A stretch of 64,000 nt of DNA. It comes from Candidatus Collierbacteria bacterium (GTDB lineage: Bacteria; Patescibacteriota; Microgenomatia; UBA1400; MFAQ01). The translations under genes were made by a program, and so were the position numbers. Shown here piece after piece: positions 45,698-55,941 of this stretch. Location of the stretch: positions 1,637 through 65,636 of the forward strand of contig CAISER010000025.1 of the NCBI GenBank assembly GCA_903884375.1. Direction: 5' to 3'. Each line of letters starts with the position of its first letter. The stretch's first letter is position 1. Below the pieces are notes generated by a model. That model did not search any database. It was not told the DNA's origin and worked only from the letters and a program-made list of their open reading frames with translations.

Positions 45698-47062
45698 ATG
45701 GAAAAATTGGTGAAAGAAAGAGTGATTCGAATATTTAATTTATCAGAGGATGTTTGGCCTTTTATTGAAACGATGGGCAACAAAAAGGCAAGAATGTCGG
45801 AGATTGAGGAAAACGCAAACTTGGCCGACCGTGATTTGTTTTCAATGGCTGAGGAGTTTGAGTTTACCTTTATCACTCCCAAAAAACTGGATCCCCATTT
45901 CGTAAACTACTTTATCAAAGTTTGTATGATGCGGGAAATGGAAGTATTGGTTCCCAAAAAAAATAGTGGACTTATTTGTGAGGATATTTTGGCGGATAAG
46001 GAGATTATGAAGAGGCTTGTTAAACTGGGGAAGAGCTGTAAAAGATTGGTGCTTACCGCCTACTCTACTTCGCCATATTTTTTACACTTGGTTGGCGAGT
46101 TACGGAAAAAGGGAATTGAAGTACGAACACCAGAAGCTCCAGATGAGGCTAATGCTTGGACGGTAAATTTTTACGGAAGCAAATCGGGGATAAGACAACT
46201 GACACAGATAAACGGGGCAATTAGAGCGGACTTGAAAATGCCTAATGGAGTTGTTTCCTCGGGAGTGTTGGACTCTGCAAGGATAGCGGCAAATAAATAT
46301 ATAAAGGAAAATGGAGTAGTAATCAAAACAAACAAAGGCCACTCAGGAATGGGAGTACTTATTTTCCGTAAAGGTGATTTGCCGAAAAAATATCGAGAGT
46401 GTCAGAAAAAAATTATTGAAATATTTAACGGAGACAGTTACTGGGAAAAATTTCCGATCGTGGTGGAGTCTTTGGTAAAACCCAATCCTCGGATCGGAGG
46501 AGGTTTTCCAAATGCGGAGTTTTTGATAAAAAAAGATGGCGAGGTAAAACTTTTGTATTACTGTGGAATGCGAGTAGACGACAAGGGCGTTTTTGGCGGA
46601 GTGGAGATAGGAGAAGAAGTATTGCCTCGTCGTGTGACTTCCAGAATTACCGATATCGGTTATCTAATTGGCGAACAGTATGCCGAAGACGGTTATCGTG
46701 GTTTTTTTGATATTGATTTTATTGCCGGAAAAGGTGGAGAGATATTTGTGAATGAGTCGAATGTAAGAGTCACTGGAGGAACACATGTGTATCAAGCAGC
46801 AGTAGAACTGGCTGGGCGAGAGTTTATGAAGAAAGTCTATGTGTTGTCGAATAATAACTACGATATTCCAAACAAAAAAATCTTTACTTTCGACAGACTT
46901 CATAAACTAATGAAACCGATACTTTTTGACAGAAAAACGCGTGAGGGATTGGTGATTGCATCGTCAAATCTATTGGCAATGGGAAAACTGGCTTACATTA
47001 TTTTTGGAAAAAATAAACGTAGAGCTTTGGCCGTCGAGGAAGAGATGACGAGATTATTATAA
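45698..47062 (+). CDS. ATP-grasp superfamily carboxylate-amine/thiol ligase, subfamily unassigned
   Basis: VVIKTNKGHSGMGVLIF matches ATP-grasp phosphate-binding loop (cf. RimK VVxKPxxGSxGxGV); C-terminal FVNESNVRVTGG matches the E-x-N-x-R motif; 454 aa; only plus-strand gene in a 45-kb minus-strand block. Confidence 0.7.
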   Translation: MEKLVKERVIRIFNLSEDVWPFIETMGNKKARMSEIEENANLADRDLFSMAEEFEFTFITPKKLDPHFVNYFIKVCMMREMEVLVPKKNSGLICEDILADKEIMKRLVKLGKSCKRLVLTAYSTSPYFLHLVGELRKKGIEVRTPEAPDEANAWTVNFYGSKSGIRQLTQINGAIRADLKMPNGVVSSGVLDSARIAANKYIKENGVVIKTNKGHSGMGVLIFRKGDLPKKYRECQKKIIEIFNGDSYWEKFPIVVESLVKPNPRIGGGFPNAEFLIKKDGEVKLLYYCGMRVDDKGVFGGVEIGEEVLPRRVTSRITDIGYLIGEQYAEDGYRGFFDIDFIAGKGGEIFVNESNVRVTGGTHVYQAAVELAGREFMKKVYVLSNNNYDIPNKKIFTFDRLHKLMKPILFDRKTREGLVIASSNLLAMGKLAYIIFGKNKRRALAVEEEMTRLL

Positions 47063-47193: not shown

Positions 47194-48255
47194 TCACCAC
47201 TTTGGTAGAAATGATTTTATATTTTCGGGCGTGAGAGATATTGTCTTGGCTTGACCGGTAACAATTAATAGAGCAACTTTACGGACAATACCTTCGATCG
47301 TGCGATTTAGGGTACGAATACCGGCGTCGTAACCTAGAGGACGAATAATCATCGGCCAGAGAGCAGGGTCAATGGTAATGATTGAGGGATCCATACCGGC
47401 GGCTTCCAAAGCTTTGGGGAATAGATATTCGAGGGCAATATGAGTTTTTTCATCGTCGGAGTAAGAAGGCATTTGAATTGGTTCCAAACGATCCATAACG
47501 GCGGTCGCTAAATTGCCCGTGTTGTTGGCCGTGGCGATAAACATAACTTCGGAAAGGTCAACGGGGTAATCAATAAAGTGATCGAGAAAACGATTGTTTT
47601 GCGTTGGATCAAGAAGCTCGACCAAAACACCCATAATATCAGCTCTGGCTTCTTCGGTAACACGGTCGATTTCATCCAGAAGAATAATGGGGTTTTTAAC
47701 TCCCGTATCACAAAGAGCTCTGACCACATAACCAGGTTCGGCTTCAAGATGTAGACGAGACTGGCCACGTAAGTCTTTAGCTGAACCCAAACCTCCAAAA
47801 GGAATACGGGCAATGGGGCGGCCAAGCGCTTCAGAGAGGGCATAAGCAAAAGTAGTTTTACCGGTACCAACAAGACCAACTAAGCAAACAATCGGAGCTC
47901 TCCCCGCTCCAAGGTTTCTGGTGGTACGGAGTTTTAAGATAGACATATATTCAAGAATTCGTTCCTTGACCTCGTTCATGCCGTAGTGATTTTTATCAAG
48001 TGTGGCCTTGATAGCAGTTAAGTCAATCGGGCGTTCGACTCTTTTTGTCCAAGGAACTTTGGCAACCCAAGAAATATAGTGGCTGATTTTTTCGTATTCT
48101 TCAGAAAAAAATCCTTGGGTGGAAAGACGCTCGAGACGAGCAATCATATCAAGAGTATTTTCTTTTAACTCTGGGGGTGTTTCGATACTTTCAATTTTTT
48201 GACGAAGATCATCAAGAAGAGTATTGGCTTTTGTGGTGATTGGAGCAGGATCCAT
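47194..48255 (-). CDS. Lon-like AAA+ ATPase lacking both the Lon N-terminal (LAN) domain and the S16 protease domain
   Basis: near-collinear match to the LonA AAA+ module: YISWVAKVPWTKRVERP...LDKNHYGMNEVKERILEYM (cf. Lon LDxDHYGLExVKxRILEYLAV), Walker A GLVGTGKTT, Walker B ILLDEID, sensor/Arg-finger region; protein ends exactly where the Lon protease domain would begin. Confidence 0.75.
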   Translation of the reverse strand: MDPAPITTKANTLLDDLRQKIESIETPPELKENTLDMIARLERLSTQGFFSEEYEKISHYISWVAKVPWTKRVERPIDLTAIKATLDKNHYGMNEVKERILEYMSILKLRTTRNLGAGRAPIVCLVGLVGTGKTTFAYALSEALGRPIARIPFGGLGSAKDLRGQSRLHLEAEPGYVVRALCDTGVKNPIILLDEIDRVTEEARADIMGVLVELLDPTQNNRFLDHFIDYPVDLSEVMFIATANNTGNLATAVMDRLEPIQMPSYSDDEKTHIALEYLFPKALEAAGMDPSIITIDPALWPMIIRPLGYDAGIRTLNRTIEGIVRKVALLIVTGQAKTISLTPENIKSFLPKW

Positions 48256-48367: not shown

Positions 48368-49363
48368 TTATCGAATATTGTAGGTTGGTGGCTTAGTGCT
48401 GCCGCTACCGGTGTTAATTCTGCACAAACTATCGTTAGTACAAGTGCTTTTAGGACATGTTGAGCTAATATTGACAGTTTTTGATATTGATTTACAAAGA
48501 TTGTTACTACATGTTTTGTAAATACAAACTTTTGTGTTTGCCACTCCTGATCCCACTGTCGAGCATTTACATGTAATGCTCCCATCTTTACAGGTACACA
48601 CTCTGCTCTTTGATTGTCCTGTTCCACAACCTAATGATGCCGGACAATTACCGGAACATTGATTATATGATTGACCGCTGGCAAAAGTATAACCATCACT
48701 GGTAGTGCAAGTGCCAGGCTTAATGATGGTACCGGCACAAGTATTATCATTTGAGCCTTTGCATGTACTAGTAGGACAGGTCGAACTTTGTTTAAAGGTC
48801 ATGTTATATGACTTACACTGACCCTGATAACACTGGGACCATTTACATTCTTTAGTCCCTGAGGGAACGGGCTCTTTATCGGCTATGCATTGGCCGACTG
48901 CGGAACTGGCGGTATAGTTTAAGGCAATTTTTCCATTACCACAGTGATAACCAGAGCAACACTGCCGGACATCATTCCAAGAAAAAACTCCACAGTGTCC
49001 ACCTTCTTCCACACACCTATTTGAAGTTGGTCGAGGTTTTTCAGTGCAATTCGATGGTTTACAGCTCGCGGTAAACGCTCTGCTCTCGCCTCCACCAGTG
49101 TAAGCGCAAATTTCTCCGGTTTTGCAGCCACCTTCCCAACCACATTTATTTGCGGTTGCCAGGCTGCTGCCACAAGTAACGTTTGCCGCTGCTGGTTCAC
49201 TTTCTGGAGCATTGGGGGCTACGGCTTGTCTGGCAGTTAATTGAGCAGCAATAAAAAGAACGGCACCAAGAATAGCAGCAAAAATTAAGACAGGAAAAAA
49301 CTTTTTCAAAAAAGGATTAGTATGCTGTTTGACAATCGTCTTCTTGGGCATCTTCTTGGCCAT
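48368..49363 (-). CDS. membrane-anchored, extremely cysteine-rich extracytoplasmic protein (about 32 Cys in about 270 residues, Thr/Ser/Gly-rich, repeated S-T-C-P-x-S-T-C-like units)
   Basis: Lys-rich N-terminus, one TM/signal-anchor (FFPVLIFAAILGAVLFIAAQL), then Cys-rich domain; locally GC-richer than surroundings; no bacterial family recognised. Confidence 0.7.
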   Translation of the reverse strand: MAKKMPKKTIVKQHTNPFLKKFFPVLIFAAILGAVLFIAAQLTARQAVAPNAPESEPAAANVTCGSSLATANKCGWEGGCKTGEICAYTGGGESRAFTASCKPSNCTEKPRPTSNRCVEEGGHCGVFSWNDVRQCCSGYHCGNGKIALNYTASSAVGQCIADKEPVPSGTKECKWSQCYQGQCKSYNMTFKQSSTCPTSTCKGSNDNTCAGTIIKPGTCTTSDGYTFASGQSYNQCSGNCPASLGCGTGQSKSRVCTCKDGSITCKCSTVGSGVANTKVCIYKTCSNNLCKSISKTVNISSTCPKSTCTNDSLCRINTGSGSTKPPTYNIR

Positions 49364-49499: not shown

Positions 49500-51677
49500 T
49501 TAACGAGAGTCTCTAAAATTGCGGAAGTTTGGACGACCACCACCTCTTTGACCGCCTCGATCACCACCGCCAAATCTTGGCCTGTCTCCTCCGCCACCCA
49601 TAGGTCGCTGTGCTCTTATTGGTTCCTCGCCTTCTTTGAGCATGGTGAGATTTACGCGACCCATGGAGTCTACTTCGTAACATCTGACTTCAACTTTGTC
49701 GCCGATTTTCATTGTTTTGAAAACTTCTGGTTGGACTTGGGAAATATGAACTAAACCATCTTTCCCCGGAAGAATATTGACGAATGCGCCAAAAGCTTCA
49801 ACTCTAGCAACAGTACCTTGATAGGTCATGCCAACTTCGGCTTCGGCAACAATGGAATCAATGAAAGCTCTGGCTGCATCTACCTTGGATTGATCTGTAC
49901 CGGTAACGGTAACAGTACCATCATCTTCGATGTTGACTTCAACTAAGAAATCATCTTGGATTTGGTGAATGATCTTGCCACCTGAACCAATAACGTCACC
50001 AATCTTGGCAACCGGGACTTTGGTGGAAACAATTTTAGGAGCGTACTGAGATAGTTTTTCGCGTGGAACAGAAATGGATTCGACCATGAGGTCTAGAATC
50101 TTCATTCTGGCACGTTTGGCTTGTTCAACAGCTTGGGTTAGGACTTCGGCTTTGATACCCGTAACCTTGACGTCCATTTGGAGAGCGGTGATACCGTCTT
50201 TGGTTCCAGCGACTTTGAAATCCATGTCACCTAGGTGATCTTCGAGACCACAGATGTCGGTGAGGGTGACAAAATCTTTGCCTTCGGTAATTAGTCCCAT
50301 GGCAGTACCGGCAACAGGTTTTTTAATTGGAACACCAGCGTCCATGAGAGACAAGGTAGAACCACAAATTGAGGCTTGAGAAGTAGAGCCATTTGAAGAC
50401 ATAACTTCAGAGACAACACGAATGGTATACGGGAAAACGGCGGTGTCTGGAAGGACAGGAACCAAGGCTCTTTCGGCAAGATTCCCATGACCAATCTCAC
50501 GGCGACCTGTACCTGGGCGACCAACTTCACCGGCTGCGTAGCCTGGCATGTTGTAGTGATGCATATAGCGCTTGGTGGTTTCACCCTTCATACCATCGAT
50601 AAGCATTTCTCTGGCTGGAGAAGCTAGAGTAACAACCGAAAGTACATGAGTAAGTCCTCTTTGGAAAAAGGCAGAGCCGTGAGTACGAGGAAGCAAACCA
50701 ATCTCGATATTGATAGGGCGAATATCCTCGATTCCACGTCCGTCTGGTCTGGTTTTGGTTTCGAGAATGGTTTTTCTAGCCTCGTCACGAAGCATATGAT
50801 CAGCGGTTTCGGCAATGTGACTAGCATTGTATTCTGGATGAGCGGCGATAATGCCGTCGACGATTTCTCTAGCTTGGATTCCAGTTTTGGTAGCTTCGTT
50901 TTTCAAGATTACTTGAAGATCTCCAATTTCGGCGCTAACAAACTTTTTAATTTCAGAATCTATAACGATTTCAGGGATAGTACGTTTGGCTTTGCCGTTT
51001 TCTTTGGCAAATTTGTCAATTCCTTCGGCAATGATGTCGACATATTTTTGAGCGTAGGCAAGGGCGCCGGTCATCTTTTCTTCGGAAACTTCATTGGCTC
51101 CGGCCTCAACCATACAAATGCCCCCCTTAGGACCAGAAACGACAAGATCGAGAGGAGAAACAAGCTTTTCTTGCTCATTTGGGTTGATGATGTACTCACC
51201 TTCTGGGGTCATACCAACACGAACAGCACCAACCGGTCCGGCCCATGGATAGTCAGAAAGAGATACAGCAGCTGAAGAAGCAATAATGGCTAAAATTTCT
51301 GGCTCTTCGACTCCATCGATGGAGAGAGGATAAGACATGATCTGAACTTCATTTCTTGAAGCTTGATCAAACAAAGGACGGAGAGAGCGATCGATCACAC
51401 GACCAACAAGGATTTCACCTTCTGAAGGACGTCCTTCACGTTTTATAAAACGACTGGAAGAAATAACTCCACCTGCGTAGAATTTTTCTTGGTAATCAAT
51501 GGAAAGAGGAAAATAATCAATTCCTTCTTTAACTCTGTTTGTGGCTACTACTGAAGCAACAACTATAGTGTCGCCGCATCTTGCAGTAACAGAACCTGAG
51601 GCCTGGGCACCAAAACGGCCGGTTTCGATTGTAATTGTTTTACCATTGAGAACAATGGTAGTTTGAGGATGTGTCAT
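49500..51677 (-). CDS. pnp: polyribonucleotide nucleotidyltransferase (PNPase) with C-terminal RGG/Gly-Arg-rich tail
   Basis: two RNase PH domains, KH and S1 domains; start set at ATG MTHPQTTIV preceded by AAAGGA (ORF-track start 51704 is GTG); C-terminus GGGGDRPRFGGGDRGGQRGGGRPNFRNFR. Confidence 0.93.
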   Translation of the reverse strand: MTHPQTTIVLNGKTITIETGRFGAQASGSVTARCGDTIVVASVVATNRVKEGIDYFPLSIDYQEKFYAGGVISSSRFIKREGRPSEGEILVGRVIDRSLRPLFDQASRNEVQIMSYPLSIDGVEEPEILAIIASSAAVSLSDYPWAGPVGAVRVGMTPEGEYIINPNEQEKLVSPLDLVVSGPKGGICMVEAGANEVSEEKMTGALAYAQKYVDIIAEGIDKFAKENGKAKRTIPEIVIDSEIKKFVSAEIGDLQVILKNEATKTGIQAREIVDGIIAAHPEYNASHIAETADHMLRDEARKTILETKTRPDGRGIEDIRPINIEIGLLPRTHGSAFFQRGLTHVLSVVTLASPAREMLIDGMKGETTKRYMHHYNMPGYAAGEVGRPGTGRREIGHGNLAERALVPVLPDTAVFPYTIRVVSEVMSSNGSTSQASICGSTLSLMDAGVPIKKPVAGTAMGLITEGKDFVTLTDICGLEDHLGDMDFKVAGTKDGITALQMDVKVTGIKAEVLTQAVEQAKRARMKILDLMVESISVPREKLSQYAPKIVSTKVPVAKIGDVIGSGGKIIHQIQDDFLVEVNIEDDGTVTVTGTDQSKVDAARAFIDSIVAEAEVGMTYQGTVARVEAFGAFVNILPGKDGLVHISQVQPEVFKTMKIGDKVEVRCYEVDSMGRVNLTMLKEGEEPIRAQRPMGGGGDRPRFGGGDRGGQRGGGRPNFRNFRDSR

Positions 51678-51706
51678 CCTTAAATCCTTTCTTTTTCGCG
51701 CCACCC

Positions 51707-51775: not shown

Positions 51776-52066
51776 TTATTTTGCTGAGTCGCGCAACTGA
51801 CTGTTAATGTTTAGAGACTTGGTAACTTCAAGATAATCTTTTGAATTGGATTTTAGAAGATAATTTAGGAGGCGGCGTCTTTTGGAAATAATCTTTAAGA
51901 GGCCACGTCTGGAATGATTATCTTTATTGTGAACTTTTAGATGATTGGTGAGTTCTTCGATTTGGGCAGTGAGAAGGGCAATTTGCACACGAGGAGAACC
52001 AGTGTCTTTGTCACTGGCAGCGAAGGATTTTATGATATCTACTTTTGTTTCGGATTTAAGAGCCAT
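51776..52066 (-). CDS. rpsO: 30S ribosomal protein S15
   Basis: [51 protein letters not shown]15 signature; start set to [11 protein letters not shown] (ORF-track start is TTG). Confidence 0.9.
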
Positions 52067-52131
52067 ATCGGGTTGTATTGTAACAGATGTATTTCGTTTT
52101 GCCAAGACTGAACTGTGCGTAAAGAAAAAAT

Positions 52132-52389
52132 TTAATCATCGGAATCAAGGTCTTTGTCTTTGGTTGGTTGAGATTTCCAGATACCACCCTTGTCTTCAGG
52201 CTCAACTGGTTCAAGTTCATTACCCCAGGCTCTAAACATTCTTACTTGTCTGGGGGTAAGTTTCCGGATCAAGACAACCCTTTCCCCTGTTTCGGGGACA
52301 ATCCCTGTTTCATAAGTACCGTCGGGTCCTTTTATCTTAAAAGGACGCGTAATATCGTCGTCTTGTTCGTATTCTGGTATTCCACCCAT
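52132..52389 (-). CDS. small hypothetical protein, 85 aa, acidic C-terminus
   Basis: ATG-initiated ORF 15 nt downstream of the DHH-like gene and 26 nt upstream of rpsO; no family recognised. Confidence 0.4.
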
Positions 52390-52404: not shown

Positions 52405-53319
52405 TCAACCATTGTCACCAACACGGAAGATTTTAGGTTTGTTCCAGTCTGCCGGGATTGAGGTACCAGCTTCATTGGTAGATAGGTTTTCTTCTTCCGG
52501 AAGAGGAATGTTTTCTTCGGTAGGAGCCGATGGAACATCGGGCACTTCAAAAAATGGCGCTTGGGAAAAACGAGGAGTTTGAACTTTTGTTTTTGGAAGA
52601 TGAGCACCGGAGCGCATAAGGAAAGCAATGGCTTCAAAGGTGTCTGCCGTTAGATTGCCTGTGGATAAATTATTGGAACTTTCGTAAATATTGGTTAATA
52701 GATTTTGAGAAACAGAAGTGTTTAGTTTTAATTTTAATTCCTTGAGAAGACCAATAACCAACTCAGAAAAAGAACCCATGTTTTTGTGATAAAGATTGCC
52801 GGTAAATGCGGCTGGTCGAAGAGTATTGTTGAGATTTAGAATGGTGGCATTATCCAAAAAGTTTTTTTCATCGGCATAAATTTTTCCTAATTCTTCGAGA
52901 GAATTAATACCAAGAGTAATGACTAAGTCGGCTTGAGCTCCTGAGTAAGAGTATTTAACACCGCCGATATCGGGAACGGGAGCACCAGTTTTGGGTTTTA
53001 CCAATAGATAAAATTTGCCGTCATCTCTGACATCGTAGTCAACTTTATCCAAATCTTCTTCACGATAATCAAAGGAGATAATTAAGTTACGACTACCAAT
53101 GGAGTCGGGGATGTTTTTTATACCATTAGTTTCGTCATCAACTTCGACTTCACTTCCACAACCGATTTGAGAAATTTTCCCTGATTGTTTTAGAGCAAGA
53201 TGAAGACTGATTCCGGCGGTAACAAGATCTTTTCCTGGATCGGGAGGAAGAATAATAATAATAGACTTGGCAGATTTAATTAAATTATTAACGTTTATTT
53301 CCGATTTGTTGTCTTCCAT
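52405..53319 (-). CDS. DHH-family (NrnA-like) homolog with degenerate catalytic motifs, likely catalytically inactive
   Basis: collinear with NrnA N-terminal DHH domain (IIIILPPDPGKDLVTAG vs IvIhrHvrPDGDalGS; NLIISFDY motif II Asp retained) but DHH triad replaced by TLG and no GGGH DHHA1 motif; occupies the rbfA/nrnA slot after infB. Confidence 0.5.
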   Translation of the reverse strand: MEDNKSEINVNNLIKSAKSIIIILPPDPGKDLVTAGISLHLALKQSGKISQIGCGSEVEVDDETNGIKNIPDSIGSRNLIISFDYREEDLDKVDYDVRDDGKFYLLVKPKTGAPVPDIGGVKYSYSGAQADLVITLGINSLEELGKIYADEKNFLDNATILNLNNTLRPAAFTGNLYHKNMGSFSELVIGLLKELKLKLNTSVSQNLLTNIYESSNNLSTGNLTADTFEAIAFLMRSGAHLPKTKVQTPRFSQAPFFEVPDVPSAPTEENIPLPEEENLSTNEAGTSIPADWNKPKIFRVGDNG

Positions 53320-53320
53320 T

Positions 53321-54724
53321 TTAGTTTTCTATAGTTGTGGCCGTCATTATATCACCAGTTTTAAACTCAATATTGGGAGTTAAAACCAAACCACATTCCT
53401 GATCTTTTTTGGCCTCCAAAACATCTTCTTTGCCGATTTTAAGGGAAGTAATTTTTGAGTTATCAACCGTGTCGCCAATTTTAAATTTACCTGAGGTAAT
53501 ACTACAACCATAGACGATGGTCCCGCCAAAATTAAAGACTTTGAGAACACTGGCTTCCCCTGTCGTAATTATCTTGGGAGCGGCTTGTGCCGATTTGGTT
53601 GTTTGCAGTTCTTTTAGATAATCAAATAGTTGATAAATTATTTTGAAATTGGTGAATTTGATATGTTCGATTTCCGCCAAACGGGCAACTGAGGCCGACA
53701 TTTTGGAGTTGAAGCCTAAAATTTCGGCTTTGGTGGCAATAGCTGTTTCAATATCGGAATCAGTGACCAAACCAACGGAACTACTAACAATATTGGCTTT
53801 ATCTTTGATTGTTTCTGAGATGGCTTCAAGTGAACCTTGGACATCGGCTTTGAGAATAATGGTAGGAATTTCTTCACTAATAACATCCGAAACACCAAAA
53901 GTATTATTTGTTTTTTGGTTGATGCAGGGTTTGCTGGTGATAATGTCGCCAACATTGGGAACTTTGGCAAAACCAATTACTTGAAAAGGAGTCGAGGGGG
54001 TTGCCTTGGAAAGAAATTTACCGGAGTAGTCCAACATGGAGCGGATTTTGCCGAAATCAATTTTACCGTTGTAGAGAGGATCGTTTTTATCAAAAACACC
54101 ACTTTTTACTAATAGAGTTGCCAAAGGACCTTTTTGCGGATGCATTGACGACTCAATAACAAGAGCCGTGGCCGGACAGTCATCCGAATTGTCTTTTAGC
54201 TCTTCCAGCTCAGCCAATAGAAGAATAATTTCCAGTAAATCATCTACGCCCTCACCGGTTTTGGCGGAAATGTTGACTATGGGAATATTCCCTCCATAGC
54301 CTTCAACAAAAACGCCTTCGTTTGCTAGATCTGTTTTGACTCTTTCAGGATTTACTCCTGCAAGGTCGGTTTTATTAACGGCAACAACAAAAGGAATACC
54401 GGCAGATTTGATGTGTTCGATGGATTCTTTCGTCTGGGGCATCACCGAGTCGTCGGCAGCAATAATAAGGATAGCTACATCAGCAGCTTGGCCACCTCTT
54501 CGACGCATTGCCGAAAAAGCCGCATGACCGGGGGTATCGATAAAGGTAATTATTTTGCCTTGATGTTCAATTTGATAAGCACCAATGGCTTGAGTAATGC
54601 CACCAACTTCACCTGAAGCAACCGAAGCATGACGAATCCTGTCTAATAAAGAGGTCTTTCCATGATCTACGTGTCCTAAAATAGTAACCACCGGTGGCCT
54701 GGTGGCAATTGTTTTTTCGGCCAT
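53321..54724 (-). CDS. infB: translation initiation factor IF-2, short form (G domain starts at residue 10)
   Basis: [15 protein letters not shown]1 motif; 467 aa; after nusA. Confidence 0.9.
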   Translation of the reverse strand: MAEKTIATRPPVVTILGHVDHGKTSLLDRIRHASVASGEVGGITQAIGAYQIEHQGKIITFIDTPGHAAFSAMRRRGGQAADVAILIIAADDSVMPQTKESIEHIKSAGIPFVVAVNKTDLAGVNPERVKTDLANEGVFVEGYGGNIPIVNISAKTGEGVDDLLEIILLLAELEELKDNSDDCPATALVIESSMHPQKGPLATLLVKSGVFDKNDPLYNGKIDFGKIRSMLDYSGKFLSKATPSTPFQVIGFAKVPNVGDIITSKPCINQKTNNTFGVSDVISEEIPTIILKADVQGSLEAISETIKDKANIVSSSVGLVTDSDIETAIATKAEILGFNSKMSASVARLAEIEHIKFTNFKIIYQLFDYLKELQTTKSAQAAPKIITTGEASVLKVFNFGGTIVYGCSITSGKFKIGDTVDNSKITSLKIGKEDVLEAKKDQECGLVLTPNIEFKTGDIMTATTIEN

Positions 54725-54732
54725 GATTTAAT

Positions 54733-55941
54733 TTAGTTTTTGTAAACAGCCAACTGCGATTTGATTTTTTCAAGAGTCTTGGGGCCAAGACCTTTGACTG
54801 AGTCGAGTTTATCAGAGGTGAGATCCTCAATATGAGTTAGCTCTGCTTCCAAAAGAATATTTCTGGTTTTGGTGTCTAAACCTAGTTGGTCAATTTCGTA
54901 TTCTTCTGTACCGGTAACAACAATCCCTGCATCTTTATCTTTGGTTTCTTCAGAAATTATTCTCAATTTTGTTTGAGTAAGCTTGGCAGCCAATTTAACA
55001 TTTTGACCACCACGACCGATCGCCAATGAAAGCTGGTCTGCAGGAACGGTAACAATTGTTTCGCCAGTTGTTTTGTCGTATTTTATTTCCAATCCTTCAG
55101 CGGGGGCTAAAGCAGACTTAATATATTTGTCTTTGTCTTCTGAGAACTGAATAATGTCAATTTTTTCGTTATTTAATTCATTAATGACTGCTTGAACGCG
55201 AACTCCTTTTTGACCAACGCAAGAACCTACTGGATCGACTCCGGGTTGTGTAGACTCAACGGCAACCTTGGAACGACTTCCTGGTTCACGAGCAACCCCT
55301 TTTATGATGACACTACCAGCACTAACTTCAGGAACTTCTCTTTCGAAAAGACCTGAAAGTAAATTGTCATCGGCTCGAGATACAATAATTTGACGGCCTT
55401 TAGCTGTTTCGGCAATTTCTTTCAAATAAACTGCAAGACGAGAATTTAAACGATAAAACTCAGTTGGAGATTGTTCTTCGGGAGGCATGACTGCTTGGCC
55501 ACGACCTAAATCAATAATTACACTACGTCCGTCCATGCGTTGGACCATACCGGTCATGACTTCACCAATGTGGTCTTGGTAATCAGCGAGAACGGAGTCA
55601 CGTTCGGCTTCGCGAATAGTTTGGAGAATAACAAATTTGGCGGCTTGAGCAGCAATACGACCGAAGCCAGGAGGAGTAATGTCTTTTAAATCTTTTTTCT
55701 TGGCACCTTCCTCACCAACAAACAAACGGAATTGGCCGTTATCGGAATCGACATCGGCAGTAATCATTTTGCCTTCTTCTTCAAGTTTTAGTGCCTGTTC
55801 TGGATAGTCTTTTTTAAATGAAGCTATGAGAGCAGTATTGATGGCGCCCAACACAGTTTCCGGAGCGATGCCCCGTTCGGAACAAATTTGATTTATGGCT
55901 GCGGCGAACTCGGTTCTTGCCGATAGTGTTTGTGTATCCAT
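54733..55941 (-). CDS. nusA: transcription termination/antitermination factor NusA
   Basis: N-terminal domain, S1 and two KH domains; 402 aa; precedes infB. Confidence 0.9.
   Translation of the reverse strand: MDTQTLSARTEFAAAINQICSERGIAPETVLGAINTALIASFKKDYPEQALKLEEEGKMITADVDSDNGQFRLFVGEEGAKKKDLKDITPPGFGRIAAQAAKFVILQTIREAERDSVLADYQDHIGEVMTGMVQRMDGRSVIIDLGRGQAVMPPEEQSPTEFYRLNSRLAVYLKEIAETAKGRQIIVSRADDNLLSGLFEREVPEVSAGSVIIKGVAREPGSRSKVAVESTQPGVDPVGSCVGQKGVRVQAVINELNNEKIDIIQFSEDKDKYIKSALAPAEGLEIKYDKTTGETIVTVPADQLSLAIGRGGQNVKLAAKLTQTKLRIISEETKDKDAGIVVTGTEEYEIDQLGLDTKTRNILLEAELTHIEDLTSDKLDSVKGLGPKTLEKIKSQLAVYKN

What the first reader, a model, noticed from the sequence alone, without database searches (positions are those of the whole stretch)
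52405..53319. Catalytically degenerate DHH (NrnA-like) protein in the nusA-infB-(rbfA) slot
The protein is collinear with the NrnA/GdpP DHH domain. The DHH triad is replaced by TLG, motif I is altered (DPGKD), and the DHHA1 GGGH motif is absent. Its position, directly after infB where rbfA and often an NrnA-like phosphoesterase sit in other phyla, suggests a retained non-enzymatic role (a pseudo-enzyme, perhaps RNA or nucleotide binding) in ribosome maturation. No rbfA is present in the window.
Basis: partly seen in the sequence, partly recalled or inferred. Interest (0 to 1): 0.5.

Follow-up and report, generated by a model that had tools for sequence, protein, structure and literature searches.

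The report
Dead NrnA-like protein after infB
The gene right after the translation initiation factor gene infB encodes a relic of a small-RNA-degrading enzyme (NrnA) that has lost its catalytic residues and its second domain but gained a conserved tail peptide; it is kept across a whole class of ultra-small bacteria and probably acts as a non-enzymatic adaptor, though its function is untested.

Summary

One detail is wrong: TLG is the remnant of motif II (Asp to Gly137), and the DHH triad corresponds to N164-N165-T166.

Of eight catalytic positions only Asp31 survives. None of 150 family representatives has the full set. The whole DHHA1 domain is missing, not just GGGH.

New features:
- a conserved four-strand beta insertion of about 50 residues;
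- a P/Q-rich disordered linker of variable length;
- a strongly conserved C-terminal peptide, [DE]W..PK[IV][FY][KR].

The gene follows nusA-infB in 43 of 43 loci carrying this tail. A sister subfamily with a different tail is not infB-linked (3 of 3).

The family is large (over 2,000 clusters at 50% identity). Named members are all Microgenomatia, a class reported to have lost rbfA.

Best reading: a pseudo-enzyme adaptor derived from NrnA' that is tethered to the translation-initiation machinery. The identity is solid; the mechanism is inferred.

The parts
52405..53319 (-). Whole ORF, 304 aa plus stop: dead DHH-only, NrnA'-derived protein
   Evidence: ORF. There are 202 close homologues and 3,691 clusters at 50% identity with E<=1e-3. 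dN/dS is about 0.1 against orthologues.
52585..53319 (-). Folded DHH-like core, residues 1-245
53227..53247 (-). Motif I remnant, P25-P-D-P-G-K-D31 (canonical H-x3-D-x-D)
   Evidence: HMMER alignments to 4ls9 and TM1595. His to Pro25, Asp1 to Gly29, Asp2 kept as Asp31. Asp31 is D in 144 of 150 representatives.
52936..53088 (-). Family-specific beta insertion of four predicted strands, residues 78-128 (SFDY..KVDYDV..GKFYLLVKPK..PVPD..KYSYSG)
   Evidence: The wider unaligned stretch is residues 65-128. It corresponds to 5-17 residues in TM1595 and 4ls9. Strands E78-82, E90-97, E103-109 and E122-126. It is the second most conserved segment of the family.
52909..52929 (-). Motif II remnant, D131-L-V-I-T-L-G137. 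The catalytic Asp is replaced by Gly137.
   Evidence: Aligned to ELLVVVD (D80) of TM1595 and DLVVTVD of 4ls9. Gly in 124 of 150 representatives and Asp in 12 of 150. Asp is kept in 106 of 121 members of the Roizmanbacteria branch.
52822..52842 (-). Motif III remnant, I160-L-N-L-N164-N165-T166. This is the position of the DHH triad.
   Evidence: Aligned to VVIDHH of TM1595. Relatives read IDRH, IDNH or IDSN. The first His is not among the six commonest residues at its column (each of the others is at most 9 of 150). The second His is kept in 17 of 150.
52666..52692 (-). Motif IV remnant, N210-I-Y-E-S214-S215-N-N-L (canonical GIxxDTGxF)
   Evidence: Aligned to GIATDTGFF (D154) of TM1595. The Asp position is S in the query and A in 75 of 150. 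The following Thr is kept in 137 of 150.
52456..52584 (-). Disordered linker, residues 246-288, in place of the DHHA1 domain
   Evidence: pLDDT below 50 for residues 257-289. In the family its length runs from 0 to 167 residues. Composition P 16%, Q 13%, S 10%. Column conservation 0.17.
52408..52455 (-). Conserved C-terminal peptide, P289-A-D-W-N-K-P-K-I-F-R-V-G-D-N-G304. Motif [DE]W..PK[IV][FY][KR].
   Evidence: Most conserved segment of the family (0.61). The strict motif is in 113 of 151. W292 in 118 of 150, P295 in 138 of 150, K296 in 134 of 150. pN 0.035-0.07 where synonymous sites are near or at saturation, pS 0.68-0.96.
53317..53323 (-). infB stop / ORF start junction, TAA-A-ATG
   Evidence: Sequence. 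The same tight spacing, about 5-30 bp and up to about 130 bp in the most divergent loci, holds in the 40 related loci.
53321..54724 (-). infB: short IF2 of 467 aa that starts at the G domain. Upstream operon partner.
   Evidence: Pfam GTP_EFTU, EF-G_D2 and IF-2. Syntenic in all loci.
54733..55941 (-). nusA, first gene of the conserved nusA-infB-ORF block
   Evidence: ORF. tblastn synteny. NusA Pfam domains in the orthologous loci.
51776..52105 (-). rpsO (S15), the next conserved gene downstream, followed by pnp at 49500-51704
   Evidence: Pfam Ribosomal_S15. Synteny.

Best explanation
The ORF encodes a pseudo-enzyme descended from the infB-linked NrnA' branch of DHH phosphodiesterases.

Shown:
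- It keeps the DHH-domain fold.
- It has lost seven of the eight catalytic or metal-binding positions. Only Asp31 remains, and that residue may be kept for a structural reason.
- It has lost the entire substrate-holding DHHA1 domain.
- It has gained a beta insertion of about 50 residues and a conserved basic/aromatic C-terminal peptide (DW-KPKIFR) on a flexible P/Q-rich linker.
- It is placed one base after infB, in a gene order conserved across Microgenomatia.

Inferred:
- It no longer hydrolyses nucleotides.
- It works as an adaptor. The dead DHH core acts as a scaffold, probably dimeric as in NrnA.
- The tethered C-terminal peptide docks onto a partner from the same operon or pathway: IF2, NusA or the 30S subunit.
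- This links it to translation initiation or late 30S maturation in organisms that have lost RbfA and whose IF2 lacks its N-terminal domains.
For: Homology and fold:
- PDB profile hits are all DHH/NrnA (E 4e-4, 2e-19).
- 30 of 64 relatives hit Pfam DHH and none hits DHHA1.

Loss of the catalytic set:
- 0 of 150 representatives carry the full set.
- The Roizmanbacteria branch has D-R-H with an invariant Arg in place of the first His, Ala or Ser in place of the motif IV Asp, and Ser or Thr in place of the first motif I Asp.

Selection:
- dN/dS is about 0.1.
- The tail has pN 0.035-0.07 where synonymous sites are near or at saturation.

Tail and linker:
- The tail is the most conserved segment. 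The linker is the least conserved and varies from 0 to 167 residues.
- The tail is not docked on the core in the model, with pLDDT below 50.

Gene context:
- nusA-infB-ORF holds in 40 of 40 GTDB loci and in 3 distant members.
- The sister subfamily with a different tail (GSL.YQP) is not infB-linked in 3 of 3 loci.

Background:
- The NrnA' clade is co-transcribed with infB and rbfA in mycobacteria (PMC4081065).
- Microgenomatia have lost rbfA, era and der (PMC12641178).
- E. coli IF2 uses its N-terminal domain, absent here, to bind NusA (PMC12297416).
Against: - No partner has been identified and no binding was tested here. A multimer prediction was not possible.
- Gene order is the only link to translation or ribosome biogenesis.
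- The Roizmanbacteria branch keeps four of the eight positions under strict conservation (motif I Asp2, motif II Asp, motif III Asp and the second His). Some residual ligand or metal binding there cannot be excluded.
- The Collierbacteria clade has many invariant charged residues (C54, D94, D96, K108, K110, E143, K152, D156) whose role is unknown.
- No model coordinates were available, so conserved residues could not be mapped onto surfaces or onto a dimer interface.
Confidence: 0.55

Rival explanations
1. The protein is a pseudo-enzyme that binds RNA or a nucleotide directly, for example a pre-16S rRNA end or nanoRNA. It acts as a ribosome-maturation factor in place of RbfA.
For: - It sits in the slot where rbfA and nrnA' sit in Actinobacteria.
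- rbfA is lost in the class and absent from the window.
- The ancestor bound short RNAs.
Against: - The DHHA1 domain is absent. In NrnA-type enzymes that domain carries the substrate-binding GGGH and Arg residues (established knowledge).
- The core is acidic, net charge about -6 and pI about 5.1, across the family.
- The only basic element is the short tail, with net charge +1.
- There is no RbfA or KH-like fold.
Confidence: 0.15
2. It is still an enzyme. Either the active site has been rebuilt from other residues, or it uses one metal ion or none, and it hydrolyses a different substrate.
For: - The Collierbacteria clade has invariant Cys54, Asp94, Asp96, Lys108, Lys110, Glu143, Glu151, Lys152 and Asp156.
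- The Roizmanbacteria branch keeps Asp, Asp, Asp-Arg-His strictly.
- Databases annotate some members as 'DHH family phosphoesterase' or 'nanoRNase'.
Against: - None of these candidate residues is conserved family-wide. Across the 64 diverse members only D31, E186, T215 and G238, four hydrophobic or proline residues in the insertion (V93, Y95, L105, P109), a few other structural positions and the tail are nearly invariant.
- 0 of 150 have the canonical set.
- The substrate-binding domain is missing.
- The database names are automatic transfers from a Pfam or COG hit.
Confidence: 0.1
3. It regulates an active DHH enzyme of the same cell, such as RecJ, NrnA or GdpP. It would form a heterodimer through the DHH-domain interface, which is a common pseudo-enzyme mechanism.
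For: - NrnA-type proteins dimerise through the DHH domain (PMC4081065 abstract; established knowledge).
- In the Roizmanbacteria-type loci L041 and L042, recJ lies two genes downstream.
Against: - recJ linkage is not seen in L043 or L044.
- The 40 Collierbacteria-type loci instead have rpsO-pnp downstream.
- No other DHH gene is present in the 64-kb window.
- This idea explains neither the infB coupling nor the conserved tail.
Confidence: 0.08
4. It is a decaying gene remnant without function.
For: Catalytic residues and one domain are lost. It evolves faster than its neighbours: 39-75% identity, against 44-87% for infB in the same loci.
Against: - dN/dS is about 0.1.
- The reading frame is intact in all 40 loci.
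- There are thousands of clusters.
- New conserved elements have been gained, namely the insertion and the tail.
Confidence: 0.02

Closest known systems
NrnA' clade of DHH/DHHA1 nanoRNases (M. smegmatis MSMEG_2630, PDB 4ls9; M. tuberculosis Rv2837c/CnpB, PDB 5jju/5cet)
   Same: - The operon neighbourhood is the same: nusA, infB, then the DHH gene. In mycobacteria this is co-transcribed with infB and rbfA (PMC4081065).
   Different: - There is no DHHA1 domain and no GGGH.
- Seven of eight catalytic positions are replaced.
- It has a beta insertion of about 50 residues before the motif II strand.
- A disordered linker plus a conserved C-terminal peptide takes the place of DHHA1.
- No rbfA lies between infB and the gene.
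TM1595 (T. maritima pApA phosphodiesterase), B. subtilis / S. aureus NrnA, GdpP catalytic domain, B. fragilis Nrn, Borrelia DhhP
   Different: All of these are active two-domain, two-metal enzymes. The window protein lacks the metal ligands and the second domain.
Catalytically dead DHH/RecJ-fold scaffolds: eukaryotic Cdc45 and archaeal RecJ-Cdc45 homologues. That they are inactive scaffolds is my own knowledge of the CMG helicase literature.
   Different: They belong to a different branch (RecJ-like, not NrnA-like), a different process (replication) and a different architecture. They show no specific sequence relationship to this family.
RbfA (ribosome-binding factor A)
   Same: It occupies the gene position immediately after infB, which rbfA holds in most bacteria.
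   Different: The fold is unrelated: DHH here, against the KH-like fold of RbfA. There is no Pfam RBFA hit. This is a positional analogy only.
SSB-type 'folded core + disordered linker + conserved C-terminal tip' hub proteins. This is an analogy from my own knowledge.
   Same: The architecture matches: an oligomeric folded core, a low-complexity linker of very variable length, and a short C-terminal peptide that is the best-conserved element.
   Different: There is no sequence or fold relationship. The SSB tip is acidic (DDDIPF), whereas this one is aromatic and basic. Its partner is unknown.

Membership tests
DHH superfamily (Pfam PF01368 fold) | DHH-domain three-dimensional fold | tested here: met
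   [not shown]
DHH superfamily (Pfam PF01368 fold) | Significant sequence-profile match to DHH family proteins | tested here: met
   The query alone gives no Pfam hit even at E<=10. The family profile hits PDB NrnA/PDE chains at E 2e-19. 30 of 64 relatives hit PF01368, best 1.1e-14.
DHH superfamily (Pfam PF01368 fold) | Four catalytic motifs (DxD, D, DHH, D) that bind two divalent metal ions | tested here: not met
   H to P25, D to G29, D31 kept, D to G137, DHH to N164-N165-T166, D to S214. 0 of 150 representatives have the full set.
NrnA / NrnA' bifunctional nanoRNase and pAp phosphatase | Two-domain DHH + DHHA1 architecture with a GGGH motif | tested here: not met
   The ordered part ends at about residue 245, followed by a disordered linker. 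0 of 64 hit Pfam DHHA1. No GGGH in the 121 Roizmanbacteria-branch sequences, nor in the query (sequence).
NrnA / NrnA' bifunctional nanoRNase and pAp phosphatase | NrnA'-type gene neighbourhood (nusA, infB, rbfA) | tested here: met
   nusA-infB-ORF in 40 of 40 loci plus 3 distant loci. rbfA itself is absent. The clade is defined in PMC4081065.
NrnA / NrnA' bifunctional nanoRNase and pAp phosphatase | Mn2+-dependent hydrolysis of nanoRNA, pAp or pApA | not testable with these tools
   This needs a biochemical assay. The sequence predicts loss of activity.
RbfA | RBFA (KH-like) domain | tested here: not met
   No Pfam hit. The fold is DHH.
Pseudo-enzyme (generic definition: enzyme fold with catalytic residues lost, retained under selection) | Enzyme fold, missing catalytic residues and purifying selection together | tested here: met
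   Fold. Residues. dN/dS about 0.1. Absence of activity itself was not tested.

The most novel reading that the evidence does not exclude
The dead DHH core is a reusable scaffold in Microgenomatia whose exchangeable C-terminal peptide sets its destination.

The DW..PKI[FY][KR] version is made together with IF2 and docks on IF2, NusA or the 30S subunit. It would supply a bridging or checkpoint function that other bacteria get from RbfA and from the N-terminal domains of IF2. Both are missing here.

The GSL.YQP version is sent to a different machine, encoded beside giant unknown proteins and type IV pilin-like genes.

This would be a new class of translation-initiation or 30S-maturation accessory factor specific to ultra-small bacteria.
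Probability: 0.2. Interest if true: 0.75.

Novelty: new variant of a known kind. Interest (0 to 1): 0.5.

Why it matters
Patescibacteria (CPR) run translation with about half the usual set of ribosome biogenesis factors. Microgenomatia are reported to lack RbfA, Era and Der (PMC12641178). How their 30S subunits mature and enter initiation is unknown.

This protein is kept by an entire class, is very likely translationally coupled to IF2, and is clearly not doing its ancestral chemistry. That makes it a concrete, testable candidate for a lineage-specific accessory factor.

It also corrects annotation. Members of the family are labelled 'DHH family phosphoesterase' or 'nanoRNase/pAp phosphatase' in public databases. 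Metabolic reconstructions should therefore not count them as nanoRNA, pAp or c-di-AMP hydrolases.

Finally, it adds a bacterial, NrnA-derived case to the short list of catalytically dead DHH-fold scaffolds such as Cdc45.

Tried and rejected
- Single-sequence searches of the query against Pfam, NCBIfam and the PDB found nothing, apart from one chance NCBIfam hit at E 0.099.
TLG aligns with the motif II strand.
- I considered an alternative register in which S82-F-D84 is motif II. The Staphylococcus NrnA and SH1221 alignments suggest it. I rejected it for three reasons. The strand-helix-strand stretch 131-166 aligns continuously to TM1595 and 4ls9 motif II through motif III. The Roizmanbacteria branch keeps Asp at column 137 in 106 of 121 members. 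Asp84 is not conserved (77 of 150).
- The search for related loci with the diverse alignment A2 failed because it had no conserved stretch. The run with A1 worked.
- The exact window protein is not on record in the contig index, so the source contig was not retrieved.
- The afdb50 fold library was unavailable.
- A search for a paralogue in the window found none.
- A search for rbfA among 20 small or unassigned window ORFs found none.
- ORFs in the variable gap between this gene and rpsO in 14 related loci are heterogeneous cargo, and none is a shared or RbfA-sized conserved gene by inspection. These were not run through Pfam.
- The profile search with A2 in the word-indexed database added little, because of its 8,000-candidate limit.
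- Literature searches found no paper that describes this family.
- A multimer prediction of tail-partner binding could not be run with the available tools.

Full report
**1. What is at the coordinates**

A 304-aa ORF occupies 52405-53319 on the minus strand. It lies in a run of minus-strand genes:
- hrcA-grpE-dnaK-dnaJ
- nusA (54733-55941)
- infB (53321-54724)
- this ORF
- a poorly conserved 85-aa ORF (52132-52389)
- rpsO (51776-52105)
- pnp (49500-51704)
- a Cys-rich protein and a Lon-like AAA+ protein

The infB stop and the ORF start read TAA-A-ATG, an arrangement typical of translational coupling. The wider window holds the ribosomal-protein, rpoBC and EF clusters at about 40% GC. The closest relatives are Collierbacteria and Woesebacteria, that is, Microgenomatia within Patescibacteria/CPR.

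**2. Is it a DHH protein?**

The query alone matches nothing in Pfam (even at E<=10), in NCBIfam or in PDB sequences.

Profile-level evidence:
- 202 close homologues exist. All are unnamed or labelled 'hypothetical'.
- A profile of 48 of them (A1) hits nine PDB sequences. All nine are NrnA-type or RecJ-like DHH proteins. The best is M. smegmatis NrnA' (4ls9, E 4e-4).
- An exhaustive HMMER search found 3,691 clusters at 50% identity with E<=1e-3, and 2,029 with E<=1e-10.
- A profile of 64 diverse representatives (A2) hits TM1595, SH1221, S. aureus NrnA, 4ls9, Rv2837c, RecJ-like, B. fragilis Nrn, B. subtilis NrnA and GdpP, at E 2e-19 to 1e-6.
- 30 of those 64 members individually hit Pfam DHH (best 1.1e-14). 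None hits DHHA1.

Structure-level evidence:
- An AlphaFold2 model (pLDDT mostly 84-94 over the canonical DHH part, 71-86 over residues 61-130, disordered after about residue 250) matches NrnA/PDE-type DHH structures.
- Foldseek gives E 1e-11.

Homology to the NrnA-type DHH domain is therefore firm.

**3.

The mapping below uses the HMMER alignments to TM1595 and 4ls9 and the query numbering.

| Motif | Canonical | In the query |
|---|---|---|
| I | H-x3-D-x-D | P25 ... G29-K30-D31 (only the second Asp kept) |
| II | Asp (TM1595 D80, in ELLVVVD) | G137, in DLVITLG |
| III | DHH (in VVIDHH) | N164-N165-T166, in ILNLNNT |
| IV | Asp (TM1595 D154, in GIATDTG) | S214 |

So TLG is motif II, not the DHH triad.

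Among 150 representatives, none has the full set:
- motif I His: absent (P in 88 of 150)
- motif I Asp1: 18 of 150
- motif I Asp2: 144 of 150
- motif II Asp: 12 of 150 (Gly in 124)
- motif III Asp: 63 of 150
- motif III His1: not among the six commonest residues (each of the others is at most 9 of 150)
- motif III His2: 17 of 150
- motif IV Asp: rare (Ala in 75)

The Roizmanbacteria branch is less decayed but still incomplete. It keeps Asp2, the motif II Asp (106 of 121) and D-R-H, with an invariant Arg where the first His should be. It has Ser or Thr for Asp1 and Ala or Ser for the motif IV Asp. An Arg in a former metal site is a common pseudo-enzyme signature (inference).

**4.

(a) The DHHA1 domain is entirely absent, not just its GGGH motif.

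(b) Between strand 2 and the motif II strand, 5-17 residues in TM1595 and 4ls9 correspond to about 64 residues here. Residues 78-128 are predicted as four beta strands. This is the second most conserved part of the family.

(c) After residue 245 comes a P/Q/S-rich linker. Its length varies from 0 to 167 residues and it has almost no column conservation (0.17).

(d) The protein ends in the peptide P-A-D-W-N-K-P-K-I-F-R-V-G.
- It is the most conserved segment of all (0.61).
- The strict motif [DENSQ]W.{1,3}P[KRQN][IVL][FY] is present in 113 of 151 members, 2-26 residues from the C-terminus.
- Against six orthologues, the tail has pN 0.035-0.07 while synonymous sites are near or at saturation (pS 0.68-0.96). 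The whole gene has dN/dS of about 0.1.

(e) The folded core is acidic (pI about 5.1, net charge about -6) and the tail is basic.

**5. Genomic context**

- In 40 of 40 species-representative genomes found by pattern search, the order is nusA-infB-ORF-(0-2 kb of variable cargo)-rpsO-pnp. This holds down to 39% identity of the ORF.
- Three distant members with the same tail also sit directly after nusA-infB (P0267, P0261, P0254). In two of these loci the downstream genes differ, being rmuC and recJ, or rmuC alone.
- A subfamily with a different conserved C-terminal peptide (GSL.YQP[ST]G) is not next to infB in 3 of 3 look-ups. It sits beside very large unknown ORFs and, in two of the three loci, T4SS-pilin-like genes; a YtxH gene adjoins one.
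- Tail type therefore tracks genomic context. This is the main argument that the tail is a targeting or docking element.
- IF2 in all these loci is short (467-490 aa) and starts at the G domain.

**6. Comparison with what is known**

- Srivastav et al. (PMC4081065) split nanoRNases into two clades. They named NrnA' the clade whose neighbours are infB, rbfA and nusA. They showed co-transcription of infB-rbfA-MSMEG_2630.
- The window protein is best read as a derivative of that clade. It has the same slot, and NrnA' is its best close-family PDB match.
- rbfA is reported to be lost in Microgenomatia along with der and era (PMC12641178). It is found in only 969 of 2,177 CPR genomes (PMC6744442). 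No rbfA was found in the window.
[quoted passage not shown] That domain is missing here.
- I found no paper that describes this family.
- Some members are auto-annotated as 'DHH family phosphoesterase' or 'nanoRNase/pAp phosphatase'. The residue analysis makes those labels doubtful.

**7. Mechanism**

Shown:
- the fold
- the loss of catalytic residues and of DHHA1
- the new conserved insertion and tail
- purifying selection
- the strict infB linkage

Inferred:
- The protein is not a hydrolase.
- The core is a scaffold, probably dimeric like NrnA.
- The tethered tail docks on a partner of the initiation or 30S pathway.

Direct RNA binding by the core is unlikely, because the core is acidic and the substrate-binding domain is missing. 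An enzyme with a rebuilt site is unlikely, because no alternative polar residues are conserved family-wide. A regulator of an active DHH paralogue is possible but does not explain the context. A decaying gene is excluded.

**8. Verdict**

It needs one correction (the motif register) and important additions: the missing domain, the insertion, the tail, the family size and the second subfamily.

It is a new variant of a known kind, a pseudo-enzyme offshoot of NrnA'. Interest is moderate. It is a conserved, testable candidate accessory factor for translation initiation or 30S maturation in a lineage that lacks RbfA, but its function remains inferred from gene order and architecture only.

Noticed in passing
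window 53321-54724 (-): IF2 is only 467 aa and begins directly with the G domain, so all N-terminal domains of bacterial IF2 are missing. Orthologues in related loci are 482-490 aa (L041, L043, L044).
   Followed up: partly
window 52132-52389 (-): An 85-aa acidic ORF lies between the DHH-like gene and rpsO. Weak homologues (38-40%) occur only in L007 and L008. In other relatives this gap is 20-2000 bp and carries unrelated cargo: Fic-like in L003, M16-peptidase-like in L037, membrane or secreted proteins in L021 and L023. It looks like an insertion hot spot inside a conserved operon.
   Followed up: partly
L045 436-1374, L046 484-1464, L047 5001-5909: A sister subfamily of the dead-DHH family carries a different conserved C-terminal peptide (GSL.YQP[ST]G). 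It is not infB-linked. It sits beside 1,100-1,250-aa unknown ORFs, T4SS-pilin-like genes and YtxH.
   Followed up: partly
L041 6001-7050 and Roizmanbacteria-branch proteins P0294-P0412: The Roizmanbacteria branch of the family has an invariant Asp-Arg-His in place of DHH and keeps the motif II Asp. It is annotated 'DHH family phosphoesterase' or 'nanoRNase' in NCBI and JGI, although it lacks three other catalytic positions and DHHA1.
   Followed up: partly
window 47194-48255 (-): A 353-aa Lon-like AAA+ protein with no protease domain evident. The orthologue in L044 has the AAA and Lon_lid domains. It is syntenic downstream of pnp in 33 of the 40 related loci.
   Followed up: no
window 48368-49363 (-): A 331-aa Cys-rich protein with an N-terminal hydrophobic segment lies between pnp and the Lon-like gene. 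Weak matches occur only in L016 and L017.
   Followed up: no
window 45698-47062 (+): A 454-aa ORF on the opposite strand interrupts an otherwise almost uniformly minus-strand gene array. It was not characterised.
   Followed up: no
window 1-64000: ARAGORN finds no tRNA gene in 64 kb, even though the window holds the ribosomal-protein, rpoBC, EF and chaperone clusters.
   Followed up: no
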